DNA of 64,000 nt from Patescibacteria group bacterium (GTDB lineage: Bacteria; Patescibacteriota; Patescibacteriia; JAHJFT01), in NCBI GenBank assembly GCA_028710985.1, contig JAQTTB010000001.1, positions 523,014 to 587,013 of the forward strand. The letters are read 5' to 3'. This document shows, piece after piece, positions 18,305 through 62,464 of this stretch (positions are counted from its first letter, which is position 1; each line of letters opens with the position of its first letter). The translations under genes were made by a program, and so were the position numbers. The notes below the pieces were generated by a model. It worked only from the letters and a program-made list of their open reading frames with translations. It searched no databases and was not told where the DNA came from.

Positions 18305-18386
18305 GCGGGTTGGTCGGTGAATCAGTGAATCAGTGGATCAGGATATTTGTCCCGATTAACCGGTCAACTGATTCACCGATTCACCG
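18305..18386. repeat. Inverted pair of tandem octamer repeats (cggtgaatcagtgaatcagtg ... ctgattcaccgattcaccg) that forms a long hairpin between nusG and rplK.
   Basis: Read directly. The same CGATTCAC tandem appears at 29297-29326. Confidence 0.5.
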
Positions 18387-25699: not shown

Positions 25700-25738
25700 A
25701 TGTATGGGTCGCATATATGCGCCCCGTACATTTATTTT
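25700..25738. terminator. Terminator hairpin tgtatgggtcgcatatatgcgccccgtaca (GCATATATGCG-loop family)
   Basis: Flanked by an A-run and a T-run. The plus strand gives the better pairing (U-G wobble). Confidence 0.55.
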
Positions 25739-26583
25739 CCCCACCCAATTACTCTCACCCGTCCGCACATATCGTCATACGGTTTAATCCGGTCGCGCGG
25801 GCCGATAAATTTGATTATTTTTTTGCCCTGCTCGGGATCAATTTCGAAATATGACTGCATGGAGTTGAGATTTGGCAAAATTTTCCGAATCTCGTTGATT
25901 AGCCGTCCGTAATATTTAAGTCCGTCTTTGCCGCCGTCAAGCGCGGCGCGCGGCTCGTATTTTTTCACATCCGCGGGGCACTCGCGCCACACCGCGGTCG
26001 GAAGATAGGGGAGATTGGCCACGATCAAAATATTGGGATTCTTTTTCCAGAATTCAATCGGCAAAGCCTTGAGCAAATCGGATTTTATAAAATCAATCTT
26101 TGCGCCAAGTTTTTTCGCGTTTTGTCGCGCGGTCTTAAGCGCGGCCGCCGAATTATCAATCGCAATGACTTTTACGCGCGGCTTGTTTTTGGCAATCGCA
26201 ATGGCAAGCGCGCCCGAGCCGGTACCTACATCGATTACGGCTGCGCGCGGATGTTTATTCAAATACTTCAACGCCAGGCTCACAAGCATTTCGCTTTCCG
26301 GCCGTGGAATAAGAACCTTTTTATTCACGCCGATCTTGAGTTTGTAAAAATATTTTATGCCCGTGAGATAGGCGACTGGCTCATGCCTGGTGCGGCGCCG
26401 AATTAACTTGGTAAATCGCGCCAGCTCCGGTGCTCGCAATTCTCTGTCCCGGTGCGCGAACAAAAAAACCCGGTCGCGTCCGAGCGCGTGCGCCAATAGA
26501 ATTTCGGCATCGAGATCTGGTGAATCAATATGATTCTGTTGTAAAATTTTCATTGCCCTGGAAAGGGCTTGGGTGATGGTCAT
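25732..26583 (-). CDS. prmC: Release-factor glutamine N5-methyltransferase
   Basis: Carries the SAM-binding DVGTGSGALAIAIAK and the NLPY (NPPY-type) motif. Confidence 0.85.
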   Translation of the reverse strand: MTITQALSRAMKILQQNHIDSPDLDAEILLAHALGRDRVFLFAHRDRELRAPELARFTKLIRRRTRHEPVAYLTGIKYFYKLKIGVNKKVLIPRPESEMLVSLALKYLNKHPRAAVIDVGTGSGALAIAIAKNKPRVKVIAIDNSAAALKTARQNAKKLGAKIDFIKSDLLKALPIEFWKKNPNILIVANLPYLPTAVWRECPADVKKYEPRAALDGGKDGLKYYGRLINEIRKILPNLNSMQSYFEIDPEQGKKIIKFIGPRDRIKPYDDMCGRVRVIGWGK

Positions 26584-26616
26584 ATCGTTATCATATCATG
26601 TTTATTGCATCATTCG

Positions 26617-26644
26617 GTAGGGGCGTATTGCAATACGCCCCTAC
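26617..26644. repeat. Perfect 28-bp palindrome GTAGGGGCGTATTGCAATACGCCCCTAC
   Basis: Read directly. It is a member of the GTAGGGGCG palindrome family. Confidence 0.7.
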
Positions 26645-26776
26645 AAGACGACCGCGCATTGACAACCCGGCGCGATTTTGGTACAAATCAATATCCCGCC
26701 GGAATATTTCCGGCCGGAAAACCATGGGTAAGGCTGGCGTCGCAATGCGGCGTTGGTAGGCCCAAGGAGGAAAGAG

Positions 26777-27388
26777 ATGTCCGAAAAGAAAATGATGAGT
26801 CCGAGGCAACTTCGCGAGCTCATGGCCGTGGTCAGCCGGCACCTGTCTATTCATCTGCCGGCCAAGGTGGCGCAGAGCGTGATCGACAAGCCCGGCGATT
26901 TGGAGTTTGAGCTCTGCGAGCTCTTCTGGCGCATCGCCGAAGCGAACGAGAAGGCAAGAAGGGCGGTGGAAGCGAAGCACATCATCGACTGCGACGCCGA
27001 CCCCTATCTGCTCGGCCTCTTCACCGTGGAAGAGCACCGGAGAAGCGGTCAGTTGGAGTGGGACCCGGACAAGGTCGTTCTTTACCTTTCCGATTTGCAG
27101 AGGGGTCGTAGTGTTGTCCAGGGCCACGCGCTCCGCAAGGAACTCCAAAATCAGTCGGTTCTGAACGCCTGCGTCCTGGATTACCTGCTCGTTCATCCAA
27201 ACCTCATTCCCATCATGTGGATGAGGATGCGGGTCTACTTCTGGGGTACGATTTATTGCGATCGAGAAGGTGACCTCTGCGTTCGCGGCCTCTTCTGGGA
27301 AGACGAAAAAGGGTGGTTCTGGCGCTACAAGCATCTTTCGCACGATTTCTACCGCGACGACACCGCGGCGGTTTCTGCAAGCGTCTAG
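26777..27388 (+). CDS. Hypothetical protein (higher-GC orphan gene flanked by palindromic repeats)
   Basis: An AAGGAGG RBS lies 7 nt upstream of an ATG at 26777. A private terminator (acccgtttgcattaaattgcaacgggtctttttt) sits downstream. No recognisable domain. Confidence 0.5.
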   Translation: MSEKKMMSPRQLRELMAVVSRHLSIHLPAKVAQSVIDKPGDLEFELCELFWRIAEANEKARRAVEAKHIIDCDADPYLLGLFTVEEHRRSGQLEWDPDKVVLYLSDLQRGRSVVQGHALRKELQNQSVLNACVLDYLLVHPNLIPIMWMRMRVYFWGTIYCDREGDLCVRGLFWEDEKGWFWRYKHLSHDFYRDDTAAVSASV

Positions 27389-27621
27389 TAGCGGCGCATT
27401 GCAATACGCTGCTACGCGCCGACCCCCTGACCCGTTTGCATTAAATTGCAACGGGTCTTTTTTATTTAAATGCGAGTAGGGGCGGACCCCTGCGTCCGCC
27501 CTGTTCGTCGGGCGTCCGCCCCTACCATTTGTCGTCACCAACAAACGGCCGGTCGTCGATTTTCACCGCGTAGGGGCGAACGGCCGTTCGCCCCTACCGT
27601 TGATCCGTAATACGCCCCTAC
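27388..27621. repeat. Cluster of GTAGGGGCG-family palindromes. The members are a degenerate copy at 27388-27415, a split copy at 27476-27535, a perfect copy at 27570-27597 and a half-site at 27607-27621. An intrinsic terminator at 27430-27463 lies among them.
   Basis: Read directly; the sequences are given in the findings. Confidence 0.65.
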
Positions 27622-27645
27622 CGGCGCAACCCCAATTCATTCCAT

Positions 27646-27673
27646 TTGATTTTAGGGGGAGGTATGATACAAT
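27646..27673 (+). promoter_or_regulatory. Promoter TTGATT-16-TGaTACAAT (extended -10) for the 27702 paralog
   Basis: Read directly. It lies in the duplicated leader segment. Confidence 0.4.
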
Positions 27674-27701
27674 AATATCAATTTAAAATTAAATTAAAAT
27701 T

Positions 27702-28421
27702 ATGGACAAAATCAACCCATCCATGCCCGGCGAGGCAAAAAATATGTCCGCGGTCTGGATAATCGTCGCCATCGTAATCGTCGCCGTCGCGCTCGGCGGA
27801 TTAATGTATTATTTTCAAACCCTGTCGCAAGAAAAATTCGTTGCGCAGGAACAGGCGATTAATGATTTGCGCGAAGAACTTGGTCAGCCGACGGTCGTGG
27901 CTGAGGAAGGGGTGGAAGAGGAAGGTTCGGCCGAGGAAGAATATCTTACCTTTGAATCCGAACCAGTTTCTGTTTTACCCGAGATATTCTCGTTTGAATA
28001 TGCCAAAGGTTGGCATATTTATCATGAATATGATCATGGATGGGGCGAGGAAAAAGAAATTAGCAAAATATTAGTTTCGCCTGACCCGCTTCAGATTGCG
28101 CTTGACGCCGAATATTTACCTCAAGTTTATATTCTTGTCGATTTTGACTCCGTGGATACTCTTGATGAGTTCGTCGATCGGAAGTATGGAGATTCGGTGG
28201 AAACGAGTGAGGACGTAATAATTGCCAACTATCCCGGAAAAAAGATACACGTTGTAGATGACAAGATCAGCGGAGAAGATATTGAGGTTTATGCCTTCGT
28301 ATCCCCCAATGCCGCGTATTCTATTTATATTTATTATCCCGGCATAAAACAAGCAAGCATTGACCTCCCGGCAGAATATCAGCGCATCATTGATTCATTC
28401 AAGATTGAGTCAGGCAGTTAA
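27702..28421 (+). CDS. Membrane-anchored hypothetical protein, paralog A
   Basis: The N-terminal 60 aa are near-identical to the 28631 gene (MDKINPSMPGEAKNMSAVWIIVAIVIV...QTLSQEKFVAQEQAI). An acidic linker and a divergent C-terminal domain follow. Confidence 0.55.
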   Translation: MDKINPSMPGEAKNMSAVWIIVAIVIVAVALGGLMYYFQTLSQEKFVAQEQAINDLREELGQPTVVAEEGVEEEGSAEEEYLTFESEPVSVLPEIFSFEYAKGWHIYHEYDHGWGEEKEISKILVSPDPLQIALDAEYLPQVYILVDFDSVDTLDEFVDRKYGDSVETSEDVIIANYPGKKIHVVDDKISGEDIEVYAFVSPNAAYSIYIYYPGIKQASIDLPAEYQRIIDSFKIESGS

Positions 28422-28432
28422 TCGCACGATTC

Positions 28433-28465
28433 AAAAAAGGCCGCGCGTTTATTGCCGGCCTTTTT
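28433..28465 (+). terminator. Terminator aaaaaaggccgcgcgtttattgccggccttttt
   Basis: Hairpin followed by a T-run after the stop of the 27702 gene. Confidence 0.55.
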
Positions 28466-28475
28466 GAATATACGC

Positions 28476-28545
28476 GCAGGGGCGTATTGTCGCGTAGGGG
28501 CGAACGGCCGTTCGCCCCTACCGTTGATCCGCAATACGCCCCTAC
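28476..28545. repeat. Nested palindrome. The outer arms are gcaGGGGCGTATTG ... GCAATACGCCCCTAC. The perfect inner palindrome GTAGGGGCGAACGGCCGTTCGCCCCTAC (28494-28521) is inserted between them.
   Basis: Read directly. Confidence 0.65.
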
Positions 28546-28569
28546 CGGCGCAACCCCAATTCATTCCAT

Positions 28570-28600
28570 TTGATTTTATCCGGGGGGGGGGTGGTATAAT
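28570..28600 (+). promoter_or_regulatory. Promoter TTGATT-19-TGgTATAAT carrying a G10 homopolymer (28582-28591) in the spacer.
   Basis: Read directly. The homologous position in the 27646 promoter has G5. Confidence 0.45.
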
Positions 28601-28630
28601 GCAATCAATAATTAAATCATTAAAATACAT

Positions 28631-29233
28631 ATGGACAAACTAAATGCATCCATGCCCGGCGTGGCAAAAAATATGTCCGCGGTCTGGATTATCGTCGCTA
28701 TCATCATCGTTGCCGCAATTCTCGGCGGAATGATGTATTATTTTCAAACCCTGTCGCAAGAAAAATTCGTTGCGCAGGAAGAGGCGATTGAGGCTCTACG
28801 CGCCGAGTTAAGCGAACCGGCCGCTTCAACTGCGGTAGAAGAAGAGGAGGCGGTTGCGGGAGATCAGGCCAAAGTCGAAGCAATTGATGAGCTTCAATAT
28901 GAAAACGATTATTATGGATTCAGCCTGTCATTCCCAGAGACATGGAGGGGCTATTCCGTTTATCATGAAGCCAATTCAATACATTTTGGTTTCGCGGCGG
29001 AGAAAGATCTCATGGCGATAGAAGTGATGGATTTGGAGGATTGGAAGATAATGAAAAAAGAATTGGATCTTCCGGGCCATGAAGCCGATGCGCTCTATAG
29101 CGCAGCCTACAGGGGCGAGAATGATAATTTCGCATTCTTTGGATGGGCGGCCCAAGACACGGTAAACGATGAGTTTATTCTTTCCAGAAGGATGGAAGTA
29201 GGGTCAATAATTAAAACGTTTAAAGCGAAATAG
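28631..29233 (+). CDS. Membrane-anchored hypothetical protein, paralog B
   Basis: MDKLNASMPGVAKNMSAVWIIVAIIIV...QTLSQEKFVAQEEAI. Tandem paralog of the 27702 gene. Confidence 0.55.
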   Translation: MDKLNASMPGVAKNMSAVWIIVAIIIVAAILGGMMYYFQTLSQEKFVAQEEAIEALRAELSEPAASTAVEEEEAVAGDQAKVEAIDELQYENDYYGFSLSFPETWRGYSVYHEANSIHFGFAAEKDLMAIEVMDLEDWKIMKKELDLPGHEADALYSAAYRGENDNFAFFGWAAQDTVNDEFILSRRMEVGSIIKTFKAK

Positions 29234-29242
29234 TTAAATAAA

Positions 29243-29285
29243 AAATCGCCCCGACGTTCACTTCATTCAGTCGGGACGATTTTTA
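29243..29285 (-). terminator. prfA terminator (hairpin tcgtcccgac...gtcggggcga plus U-run on the minus strand)
   Basis: The G-U wobble is satisfied only on the minus strand. Confidence 0.5.
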
Positions 29286-29310
29286 TTTTCTCAGTTCCCG
29301 ATTCACCGAT

Positions 29311-30381
<1,071 letters not shown>

Positions 30382-61343: not shown

Positions 61344-62464
61344 GATATTCCTCCTTGAGCACGGTTTAGAATTAACTGGCCTGCATTGATGATTTGGACC
61401 TTATAATTGGTTTTGTTCTTGGCCGCGAATCGCCAATATCCGGTTTACCCCACAAGGGGAACCGGCCACTATATCACAAGATTTCACGCTTGTCAATGGA
61501 GGGGGGGATGTGTTAAAAAAGCGGACATCTTGTCCGCATTTTTTGTTCGTAAATCGGTAAATTGATTTGAATTTTAGATAATTCTGTCAGCAACTCTTGA
61601 CAAATTCCGCAGAGCGTACTAATGTTCAAGGTTCGTTGCGAAAATAATATTTTCAGGGTTGTGTAAATAAGTTTGAAGTAAAAATATTACGGGAGGGGAT
61701 TGAGGGCCAATCTCGCAAATCCTACTTATCTACACCATTGTGAAAATTTTGTCAAGCGATTGACAGATTAATCACGCGTAGAGGAGAAAGATAAGAATGC
61801 CTTGGTATATCTCGTAGTGCCGGGGCGTTTTTGTATTGTAGTAGATGATTGTGGACTTGTATAAAACGAAAACAGACCCAGAAGGGATCTGTCAGGAAAT
61901 TAAGCACTTGAAATGATTTATTGGTTCATTTCAGACCAGGACAGCTTTCCGCCTCACCACTTGTCTTCCCACGGCATGGAAAGACACCAGGTGACTGATG
62001 GGGGCTTGATCGTGTCTAGATCGTGTTTTGTGGCTCCTTAGGCCACGCCTTTTACCTGAATCCGCTCATGTCCTCTTGTCCTCCTTGGCTGATCGAAGTC
62101 CGAGAGCATCGTAGCACTAGCACAACATGCCCATATAATATCACATTTTGGCACTTTTGTCAAGAGACTGCCAGCCCGCAGCAAAGCTGCGGGCAATTTT
62201 AAGTTGTAAATTTTAAATTTTAATTCAAGCCCCAATTTCTAAATTTTTAATAACAAAATGTCGCGTCGCTGCTTGTTTGAAGAATTTTGAATTTATAATT
62301 TAAAATTGAATTATAATTTAAAATTAAAAAAGTCCTCATTTTGCATTACGCGCAAAAGAGGACCGGCACCCAATTCTTATATTAACAAACAATTTATTAG
62401 CATAAGGATTGTGAGCGCTTTTTGACAGAATGTCGAGGCGCGCTCGAGAATACCTCGGAAGGAG

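What the first reader, a model, noticed from the sequence alone, without database searches (positions are those of the whole stretch)
27570..29233. Tandem paralogous membrane-anchored genes with duplicated structured leaders, and a G10 tract in one promoter spacer
The genes at 27702-28421 and 28631-29233 share a near-identical first 60 codons (TM anchor plus QTLSQEKFVAQE) and then diverge completely. They also share about 110 bp of upstream sequence that contains the GTAGGGGCG palindromes and a TTGATT -35.

In the second copy the -35/-10 spacer holds an uninterrupted G10 run (28582-28591), which gives a 19-nt spacer with an extended TGgTATAAT -10. The first copy has G5 at the homologous position.

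Homopolymeric G tracts in promoter spacers are classic slipped-strand phase-variation switches. Variable C-terminal domains on a constant anchor suggest surface-exposed variable proteins.
Basis: seen in the sequence. Interest (0 to 1): 0.55.

Follow-up and report, generated by a model that had tools for sequence, protein, structure and literature searches.

The report
Paralogous membrane genes, G10 promoter tract
Two neighbouring genes of an uncultured Patescibacteria genome encode membrane-anchored outward-facing proteins that share a copied front end, and one has an unusually long run of ten G's inside its promoter; this could act as a mutational expression dial, but the available data cannot test that.

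Summary
The sequence facts hold. Genes 27702-28421 and 28631-29233 share a copied 5' module. It has an 88-nt upstream block (1 mismatch), a diverged core promoter and about 60 codons (87% nt identity). After that, similarity is almost lost.

G10 (28582-28591) is the only G/C run of 8 or more in 64 kb (about 0.005 expected). It sits between TTGATT and TGgTATAAT and gives a 19-nt spacer. Six other TG-extended promoters in the window use 17 nt.

Two parts of the interpretation need correction.
- The palindromes lie upstream of the -35, not in a leader. The predicted 5' UTRs are short and unstructured.
- The palindromes are generic GTAG-headed REP-like elements. The same 28-mer occurs in at least 120 loci from about 15 phyla.

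Gene 2 belongs to a widespread family, at least partly from Patescibacteria, built as TM anchor, linker and a ~115-aa extracytoplasmic domain. Tandem arrays with a common anchor and different ectodomains recur elsewhere, so this architecture is ordinary.

Phase variation through the G tract is plausible, as in porA, but untested. Only this one MAG carries the genes, and no reads or related strains were available. An extended -10 may also make the -35 partly dispensable.

Verdict: a real, modestly interesting candidate and a new member of a known kind.

The parts
26617..26644 (.). Intact 28-nt GTAG-headed palindrome, type A (GTAGGGGCGTATTGCAATACGCCCCTAC). It forms the left edge of the islet.
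26753..27388 (+). Orphan ORF; the likely true start is ATG 26777, after AAGGAGG. It is bracketed by type-A palindromes and matches no known family.
   Evidence: (I1)
27388..27415 (.). Degenerate type-A palindrome (GTAGCGGCGCATTGCAATACGCTGCTAC)
27429..27463 (+). Intrinsic terminator of the upstream ORF (hairpin followed by a T run)
   Evidence: -17.5 kcal/mol, z -5.95
27476..27525 (.). Long GTAGGGGCG...CGCCCCTAC palindrome, type C
27570..27597 (.). 28-nt perfect palindrome, type B (GTAGGGGCGAACGGCCGTTCGCCCCTAC), copy 1
27608..27621 (.). Right half of a type-A palindrome (TAATACGCCCCTAC). The left half is missing in copy 1.
27646..27673 (+). Promoter of gene 1: TTGATT, 16-nt spacer (containing GGGGGAGG), TGaTACAAT
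27702..28421 (+). Gene 1 (MDD4995336.1, PHW53_02650), 239 aa: TM anchor, acidic linker and an orphan ectodomain
28429..28469 (.). Terminator hairpin flanked by A and T runs. It insulates gene 2 from gene 1.
   Evidence: I16; -21 kcal/mol, z -4.46
28476..28545 (.). Nested palindromes. Type-A halves lie at 28476-28489 and 28532-28545. They are split at their centre by a 42-nt insert that carries type-B copy 2 (28494-28521).
   Evidence: I17; -50.3 kcal/mol, z -6.2
28570..28575 (+). -35 hexamer TTGATT of gene 2
28582..28591 (+). G10 homopolymer in the promoter spacer; candidate slippage tract
28592..28600 (+). Extended -10 TGgTATAAT of gene 2; the hexamer starts 36 nt before the ATG
28631..29233 (+). 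Gene 2 (MDD4995337.1, PHW53_02655), 200 aa: TM anchor (about residues 17-37) continuing as a helix to residue 61, acidic linker, and a ~115-aa conserved extracytoplasmic domain
29241..29284 (+). Terminator hairpin after gene 2
   Evidence: -18.5 kcal/mol, z -5.1

Best explanation
**Shown.** A 2.7-kb islet on the + strand lies between prfA and prmC. It holds three separately terminated transcription units and is packed with GTAG-headed REP-like palindromes.

Genes 1 and 2 are tandem paralogs. Gene 2 belongs to a widespread family, at least partly from Patescibacteria, of N-in/C-out membrane-anchored proteins with a ~115-aa extracytoplasmic domain. Gene 1 keeps the anchor but has an orphan ectodomain.

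**Inferred.** The shared 5' module (REP remnant, promoter and about 60 codons) arose by partial duplication or gene conversion. Its left breakpoint is at the edge of the 28-nt palindrome. Copy 2 keeps the complete nested palindrome, so it is probably the donor.

**Mechanism I commit to (inferred).** Gene 2 is transcribed from TTGATT-N19-TGgTATAAT. The organism's promoters use TTG-N17-TGnTAnAAT, so G10 places the -35 two bases out of register and gene 2 is probably in a low-expression state now.

A run of ten G's is intrinsically prone to slipped-strand gain or loss. G8 would restore the 17-nt optimum. The tract would therefore act as a heritable, reversible dial on expression of one exported protein, in the manner of the porA poly-G promoter. 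Because the -10 is perfect and TG-extended, I expect graded modulation rather than a clean on/off switch.

The palindromes are bystander REP-type elements, possibly involved in the recombination. They are not part of the switch.
For: - **Outlier tract.** G10 is the only G/C run of 8 or more in 64 kb, with about 0.005 expected.
- **Local promoter norm.** Six other gene-proximal TG-extended -10 elements in the window have TTG exactly 17 nt upstream, with the -10 hexamer starting 12-38 nt before the ATG. Copy 1 has 16 and copy 2 has 19.
- **Independent transcription.** Terminator hairpins follow each of the three genes, so gene 2 needs its own promoter.
- **Assembly quality.** Nine of 13 A8/T8 runs, and 53 of 81 runs of 7 or more, lie inside intact ORFs. 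This argues that the assembly handles homopolymers well.
- **Gene 2 is intact and constrained.** It matches the family profile at 2e-48 over its full length, and dN/dS is about 0.26-0.29 in the shared part.
- **Exported product.** The tail has net positive charge, a TM helix follows, and then an acidic linker. The AF2 model reaches pLDDT 84. Several relatives carry a lipobox Cys in place of the anchor.
- **Precedent.** A poly-G tract in the porA -35/-10 spacer changes transcription with each 1-nt change (review PMC3899988).
Against: - Only one assembly exists and no reads were available. No other genome or metagenome carries these genes, so tract-length polymorphism is unobserved.
- Two TG-extended -10 promoters in the window (3793 and 57275) have no -35 at all. 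The -35 may therefore be dispensable and spacer length may matter little.
- MAFFT places the 3-nt length difference between the paralog spacers in a TCC indel, not in the G run.
- Five loci of four family relatives examined show no G/C tract of 8 or more; the one G7, in L131, lies about 2.2 kb downstream of the family gene.
- The promoters are consensus-based assignments. No transcription start site data exist.
Confidence: 0.42

Rival explanations
1. The G tract has no selected function. It is a chance or recent slippage expansion of a G-rich spacer (GGGGGAGG in the paralog). Gene 2 is driven mainly by its perfect TG-extended -10, so tract length barely affects expression. The locus is then simply two diverged tandem paralogs.
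For: - Extended -10 promoters without any -35 exist in the same window.
- The paralog's spacer is also G-rich, so the tract may have grown from it.
- No comparable tract lies upstream of the family genes in the relatives examined.
- Tandem anchor-sharing paralogs are common without any repeat tract.
Against: - A G10 run is about 200-fold rarer than expected from the window's own run-length decay.
- It falls exactly in the 19 nt where length matters.
- Six of eight other TG-extended promoters keep TTG at exactly 17 nt, which suggests the -35 is used.
Confidence: 0.35
2. The tract length is an assembly or sequencing artefact (a homopolymer miscall). The real spacer is a different length, for example G8, which would give an optimal 17 nt.
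For: - A 744-kb contig might come from long-read data, which miscalls long homopolymers.
- Non-coding homopolymers are not protected by frame checks.
Against: - Nine of 13 A8/T8 runs, and 53 of 81 runs of 7 or more, sit in unbroken ORFs. Homopolymer calling therefore looks sound up to 8 nt.
- An error of one or two bases would still leave an exceptional tract of 8 or more G's in the spacer.
Confidence: 0.1
3. One reading: the duplicated palindromes are regulatory sites (operator or leader structures) that co-regulate the two paralogs.
For: - The 88-nt block with the palindromes is 99% identical. The adjacent coding sequence is 87% identical and the core promoter about 60%. Something, either constraint or recent conversion, keeps the block identical.
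- The structures are very stable.
Against: - The identical 28-mer occurs in at least 120 loci of about 15 phyla with unrelated flanks.
- Other members of the class flank the unrelated upstream ORF.
- The palindromes lie upstream of the -35, and the predicted UTRs are unstructured.
- Centres vary but remain self-complementary, as in REP families.
Confidence: 0.1

Closest known systems
Neisseria meningitidis porA promoter poly-G tract (homopolymer in the -35/-10 spacer)
   Same: A G homopolymer lies between the -35 and -10 of a gene for an envelope protein. In porA, one-base gains or losses change transcription (PMC3899988). Here G10 gives a 19-nt spacer and G8 would give the local 17-nt optimum.
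   Different: - No length polymorphism or expression data exist here.
- The promoter has a perfect TG-extended -10, so a graded effect is expected.
- The host is an uncultured Patescibacteria MAG, not a pathogen.
Mycoplasma hyorhinis vlp family (from my own knowledge; only mentioned in PMC3899988)
   Same: Clustered paralogs share a conserved 5' region, promoter and N-terminal membrane-targeting sequence, and have divergent external parts. A homopolymer in the promoter spacer controls each gene.
   Different: - There are only two genes here, and only one has a long tract.
- The anchor is a TM helix, not a lipoprotein signal.
- There is no C-terminal tandem-repeat region.
GTAG-tagged REP superfamily (Di Nocera et al. 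2013, PMC3733652)
   Same: - Both have a GTAG head, a GC-rich stem-loop of 20-40 bp and an intergenic location.
- Both form dimers and insert inside other palindromes.
- The superfamily is reported in Cyanobacteria, Chloroflexi and PVC, the phyla where the exact 28-mer was found.
   Different: - Here both arms carry the tag, giving a perfect 28-nt palindrome.
- Copy number in this genome is unknown.
- No RAYT was looked for.
- The sequence is identical across about 15 phyla.
Pfam PsbP_2 (PF18933) and PsbP-like extracytoplasmic domains
   Same: Eleven of 40 relatives of gene 2 weakly match the first ~70 positions of PsbP_2, which cover the signal or anchor plus the 'Y.N..YGFS..P..W' strand.
   Different: - Gene 2 itself has no Pfam hit at E up to 1.
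- Matches cover only about 1/3 of the profile.
- Foldseek against the PDB finds nothing significant.
- The domain is effectively uncharacterised.
Tandem anchor-sharing arrays in other Patescibacteria-type contigs (L129; a cluster member of its P0006 gene is annotated Candidatus Kuenenbacteria)
   Same: Three consecutive genes each have a similar TM anchor (…IGGG.Y…) and different ectodomains, separated by ~300-nt spacers.
   Different: There is no G/C homopolymer, no GTAGGGGCG palindrome and no near-identical 5' module.

Membership tests
Homopolymer-driven promoter phase or volume variation (contingency locus) | Uninterrupted homopolymer long enough to slip (about 8 nt or more) | tested here: met
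   G10 at 28582-28591; the only G/C run of 8 or more in 64 kb
Homopolymer-driven promoter phase or volume variation (contingency locus) | The tract lies between the -35 and -10, so its length sets the spacer | tested here: met
   TTGATT-N19-TGgTATAAT. The assignment is by consensus only, but it matches the window's own TTG-N17-TGnTAnAAT pattern and the usual -10-to-ATG distance
Homopolymer-driven promoter phase or volume variation (contingency locus) | Tract-length polymorphism within a population or between strains | not testable with these tools
   No reads were available, and no second genome or contig carries these genes
Homopolymer-driven promoter phase or volume variation (contingency locus) | Expression changes with tract length | not testable with these tools
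   Needs reporter assays, in-vitro transcription or metatranscriptomes
Homopolymer-driven promoter phase or volume variation (contingency locus) | The controlled gene encodes a surface or envelope product | tested here: met
   Predicted N-in/C-out bitopic protein. Relatives carry either a TM anchor or a lipobox
GTAG-tagged REP elements | Terminal GTAG tag next to a GC-rich stem-loop of 20-40 bp | tested here: met
   GTAGGGGCG-N10-CGCCCCTAC. The centres vary but remain self-complementary
GTAG-tagged REP elements | Many dispersed copies in the genome | tested here: inconclusive
   Five full copies (one degenerate) and three half copies occur in the window, but 10 of the 11 nine-mers lie within 2 kb. 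The rest of the 744-kb contig could not be read
GTAG-tagged REP elements | A cognate RAYT (Y1 transposase) in the genome | not tested
   About 15 of the 66 window ORFs were scanned against Pfam, and none was a Y1 transposase
Pfam PsbP_2 (PF18933) | Score above the gathering threshold over the domain | tested here: not met
   Genes 1 and 2 have no hit at E up to 1. Relatives match only profile positions about 3-69 of 184, and mostly below the cut-off
TM-anchored 'YGFSLTFPxTW...IIxTF' domain family (unnamed; defined here from the hits) | Full-length match to the family profile with the anchor, linker and domain architecture | tested here: met
   Gene 2 matches at 2e-48 over profile positions 5-188. 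Gene 1 matches only the anchor, linker and first strand, at 1.7e-08
Mycoplasma Vlp-type variable lipoprotein system | Lipoprotein signal peptide and a repetitive C-terminal region | tested here: not met
   Neither gene has a lipobox Cys, and neither has tandem repeats in its C-terminal half

The most novel reading that the evidence does not exclude
The G10 tract is a genuine slipped-strand contingency switch. It would let an ultrasmall, probably episymbiotic Patescibacteria cell vary the level of one exposed membrane-anchored protein. This would be the first repeat-mediated phase-variable promoter described in the Candidate Phyla Radiation. Only four papers in the searched library mention both terms, and none appears to be a study of phase variation in Patescibacteria, judging from titles and abstracts.
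Probability: 0.3. Interest if true: 0.55.

Novelty: new member of a known kind. Interest (0 to 1): 0.38.

Why it matters
Patescibacteria live attached to other cells with tiny genomes and few known regulators. A hypermutable promoter would be a cheap way to diversify their surface, and this has not been documented for them.

The locus gives a concrete target that can be checked against reads: one tract with a predicted optimum at G8.

It also shows how GTAG-type palindromes sit at the breakpoints of a partial gene duplication. The same 28-mer is shared across many phyla, which bears on how REP-like elements spread.

Tried and rejected
- **Strain comparison of the tract.**
  - Exact-protein look-ups found nothing.
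  - Three word-based protein searches found only the two genes themselves; the third, run with the family alignment, added only distant relatives.
  - A metagenome scan with anchor peptides gave no confirmed relative.
  - A degenerate DNA scan of viral contigs gave nothing.
  - The second metagenome scan, with PrmC, gave only a 29%-identical unrelated methyltransferase locus, so it could not show an 'empty site' between prfA and prmC.
- **Structure of gene 1.** Single-sequence AF2 failed (pLDDT 43), and no homologs exist to build an alignment.
- **RNA families.** Rfam found none in the region or the window, so a riboswitch or leader reading is dropped.
- **Other protein libraries.** PHROGs and NCBIfam gave no hits for the islet proteins.
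- **Upstream mini-ORF reading.** I considered that the G-rich element is a Shine-Dalgarno for an upstream mini-ORF. I rejected it because the mini-ORFs are not conserved between the copies (3 against 14 codons), the spacing is poor, and no promoter lies upstream.
- **G-quadruplex reading.** Rejected because a single run cannot supply four separate G-tracts.
- **Literature.** Searches for the palindrome sequence found no microbial description.
Full report
**1. Observation**

The region reads as described. Two + strand ORFs lie at 27702-28421 (239 aa) and 28631-29233 (200 aa).

BLASTP gives 50% identity over 139 residues, almost all of it in the first 60 residues. At the DNA level the duplication is a mosaic:
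- an 88-nt upstream block, 27567-27654 against 28491-28578, with one mismatch;
- a 47-52 nt core promoter and 5' UTR that is much more diverged and carries indels;
- 173 nt of coding sequence at 87% identity, with dS about 0.29-0.50, dN/dS about 0.26-0.29 and one 48-nt identical run;
- essentially unalignable sequence after that.

G10 sits at 28582-28591 between TTGATT (28570-28575) and TGgTATAAT (28592-28600), which gives a 19-nt spacer. Copy 1 has GGGGGAGG and TTGATT-16-TGaTACAAT.

G10 is the only G/C run of 8 or more in the 64 kb. Each extra base cuts run frequency about 5.7-fold, which predicts about 0.005 runs of 10 or more. No run of 10 or more occurs in 0.9 Mb of unrelated loci. The module occurs only twice in the window.

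**2. What the genes are**

Both proteins exist in public data only as MDD4995336.1 and MDD4995337.1 (PHW53_02650 and PHW53_02655) of one Patescibacteria MAG, on a 744,538-bp contig.

A full HMMER search with protein 2 found 176 relatives at E of 0.001 or better. They share one architecture:
- a short polar tail;
- one TM helix, often ending in ..GG.Y;
- a coiled or acidic linker;
- a ~115-aa domain with the signature Y.N..YGFSLTFPxTW.GY … F..I..TK.QW … YLGEN..YVF … AQD … II.TF.

Several members replace the anchor with a lipobox Cys, so the domain is extracytoplasmic. One relative is annotated as Candidatus Kuenenbacteria.

Eleven of 40 members weakly hit Pfam PsbP_2, but only over its first ~70 positions. 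Protein 2 itself has no Pfam hit.

With the family alignment, AF2 gives a confident model (pLDDT 84). It has a helix at 17-61, a disordered acidic linker and a β-rich globular domain at 83-200. Foldseek against the PDB finds nothing significant.

Protein 1 keeps the anchor and linker, plus faint traces of the first strand and the terminal II.SFK motif. Otherwise its ectodomain is an orphan, and single-sequence AF2 failed.

A contig encoding the relative P0006, whose 90%-identity cluster includes the Kuenenbacteria entry, carries three consecutive genes with similar anchors and three different ectodomains. 'Constant anchor, different ectodomain, in tandem' is therefore a recurrent and ordinary layout in this family.

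**3. Surroundings**

The two genes and an upstream orphan ORF (26753/26777-27388) form a 2.7-kb + strand islet. It lies between prfA (29311-30381, -) and prmC (25732-26583, -), with rpmE, queA and metK beyond. From general knowledge, prfA and prmC are usually adjacent, so the islet looks like an insertion. I could not obtain a related genome to show an empty site.

Each of the three genes is followed by a strong terminator hairpin, with z-scores of -4.5 to -6. Gene 2 must therefore use its own promoter.

**4. The palindromes**

Ten of the 11 GTAGGGGCG nine-mers in the window lie inside this islet. They form 28-nt perfect palindromes with constant arms and variable, self-complementary centres. 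The centres here are TATTGCAATA and AACGGCCGTT; other loci have AATGGCCATT, AGGCATGCCT and more.

They lie upstream of the -35 elements. The predicted 5' UTRs are about 21-24 nt, A/U-rich and unstructured, at -3.3 and -3.7 kcal/mol with z above 0. 'Structured leaders' is therefore a misnomer.

The exact 28-mer GTAGGGGCGAACGGCCGTTCGCCCCTAC was found in at least 120 loci before the scan hit its limit. The loci come from about 15 phyla and have unrelated flanks. Only one hit came from 2.9 million viral contigs.

These features match the GTAG-tagged REP superfamily, which is described in Proteobacteria, Cyanobacteria, Chloroflexi and PVC. That description includes dimers nested inside other palindromes (PMC3733652).

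In copy 2 the 28-mer and its short flanks (42 nt) sit exactly at the centre of another palindrome of the same class (28476-28489 | 28532-28545). An intact version of that host palindrome is at 26617-26644. The whole structure folds at -50 kcal/mol. Copy 1 retains only the inner palindrome and the right half.

The left edge of the duplicated block therefore coincides with the palindrome edge. This suggests, by inference, that copy 2 was the donor and that recombination was palindrome-associated.

**5. The promoter and the G tract**

I surveyed -10-like hexamers upstream of the window's genes.
- Six gene-proximal TG-extended -10 elements (8779-, 21390-, 21451+, 37322+, 39009+, 39673+) all have TTG exactly 17 nt upstream. 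Their -10 hexamers start 12-38 nt before the ATG.
- Two others (3793 and 57275) have no -35.
- Copy 1 (16 nt, hexamer starting 34 nt before the ATG) and copy 2 (19 nt, 36 nt before the ATG) fit the pattern except for spacer length.
- Shine-Dalgarno use is low genome-wide (about 16 of 66 genes), so its absence here is normal.

With G8 the spacer would be the local optimum of 17. With G10 the -35 is two bases out of register.

Homopolymer calling in the assembly looks reliable. Nine of 13 A8/T8 runs, and 53 of 81 runs of 7 or more, lie within intact ORFs.

The known precedent is the poly-G tract in the porA -35/-10 spacer, where single-base changes alter transcription. Similar cases are known in H. 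influenzae hif, B. pertussis and M. hyorhinis (PMC3899988).

**6. Weighing**

For a functional slippage dial:
- the tract is extremely rare;
- it is placed exactly where length matters;
- the 17-nt rule holds locally;
- gene 2 is an insulated transcription unit;
- its product is exported.

Against it:
- no polymorphism data of any kind exist;
- the perfect extended -10 may make the -35 partly dispensable;
- the alignment attributes the length difference between the paralogs to a TCC indel;
- the relatives examined have no tract upstream of their family genes.

I put the variable-promoter reading at about 0.4, a functionless tract at about 0.35 and an assembly miscall at about 0.1. The idea that the palindromes are gene-specific regulatory sites gets about 0.1.

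**7. Novelty**

The mechanism, if real, is a known kind in a lineage where it has not been reported. Only four papers in the searched library mention both phase variation and Patescibacteria, and none appears to be a study of phase variation in Patescibacteria, judging from titles and abstracts.

The paralog architecture and the REP-like palindromes are ordinary. Overall interest is modest. The claim is directly checkable from the source reads.

Noticed in passing
window 27570-27597 and 28494-28521; loci L001-L120, L132: The exact 28-nt palindrome GTAGGGGCGAACGGCCGTTCGCCCCTAC occurs in at least 120 loci (the scan hit its limit) from about 15 phyla, including Cyanobacteria, Chloroflexi, Nitrospirae, Planctomycetes, WOR-3, Omnitrophota, Bacteroidota and Spirochaetes. 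The flanks are unrelated, and only 1 hit came from 2.9 M viral contigs. Identity at this level across phyla is odd even for GTAG-type REPs. No paper in the library contains the sequence.
   Followed up: partly
window 28476-28545 (compare 26617-26644): One palindrome is inserted exactly at the centre of another of the same class. The host halves are GCAGGGGCGTATTG | CAATACGCCCCTAC, and the insert is 42 nt. In several cyanobacterial loci (L005, L018, L030, L035, L039, L043) the same 28-mer also sits at the centre of a larger inverted repeat.
   Followed up: partly
window 26584-29310: A 2.7-kb + strand islet holding three orphan or poorly characterised genes separates prfA from prmC, which are normally neighbours. 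It contains 10 of the window's 11 GTAGGGGCG nine-mers. No related genome was found that could show the uninterrupted state.
   Followed up: partly
window 26617-27415: An orphan ORF is bracketed by two 28-nt palindromes of the same class in a REP-gene-REP arrangement. Its likely start is ATG 26777, after a strong AAGGAGG, which is unusual in this SD-poor genome. It has no Pfam, PHROG or NCBIfam hit, and the exact protein from the TTG start is not in the protein collection.
   Followed up: partly
window 29298-29325 and 18317-18386: Perfect 8-nt tandem repeats (CCGATTCA x3.5) overlap the 3' end of prfA. The same unit occurs in reverse orientation (GTGAATCA x3.1), along with CCGATTAA x4.4, just downstream of the 3' end of another minus-strand gene. 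Their function is unknown.
   Followed up: no
window, whole (e.g. 8779, 21390, 21451, 37322, 39009, 39673): The organism's promoters appear to follow TTG-N17-TGnTAnAAT, with the -10 hexamer starting mostly about 30-38 nt before the start codon and A/U-rich leaders. Only about a quarter of genes have a Shine-Dalgarno-like motif.
   Followed up: partly
L129 4001-6461 (also L130, 98.8% identical): A contig encoding P0006, whose 90%-identity cluster includes a Candidatus Kuenenbacteria protein, has three tandem genes with similar TM anchors and three different ectodomains: the family domain, a Cys-rich domain and a PsbP-like-start domain. The ~300-nt spacers share short motifs.
   Followed up: partly
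window 61344-62464: A 1.1-kb stretch has no ORF of 70 aa or more and contains the window's only other G run of 7 or more (G7 at 61501-61507). It also has AT-rich tandem repeats (62195-62330) and no Rfam match.
   Followed up: no
L081 1326-1334: In a Chloroflexi MAG a G9 run directly abuts the same 28-nt palindrome (…GGGGGGGGGTAGGGGCGAACGG…). This may be coincidence.
   Followed up: no
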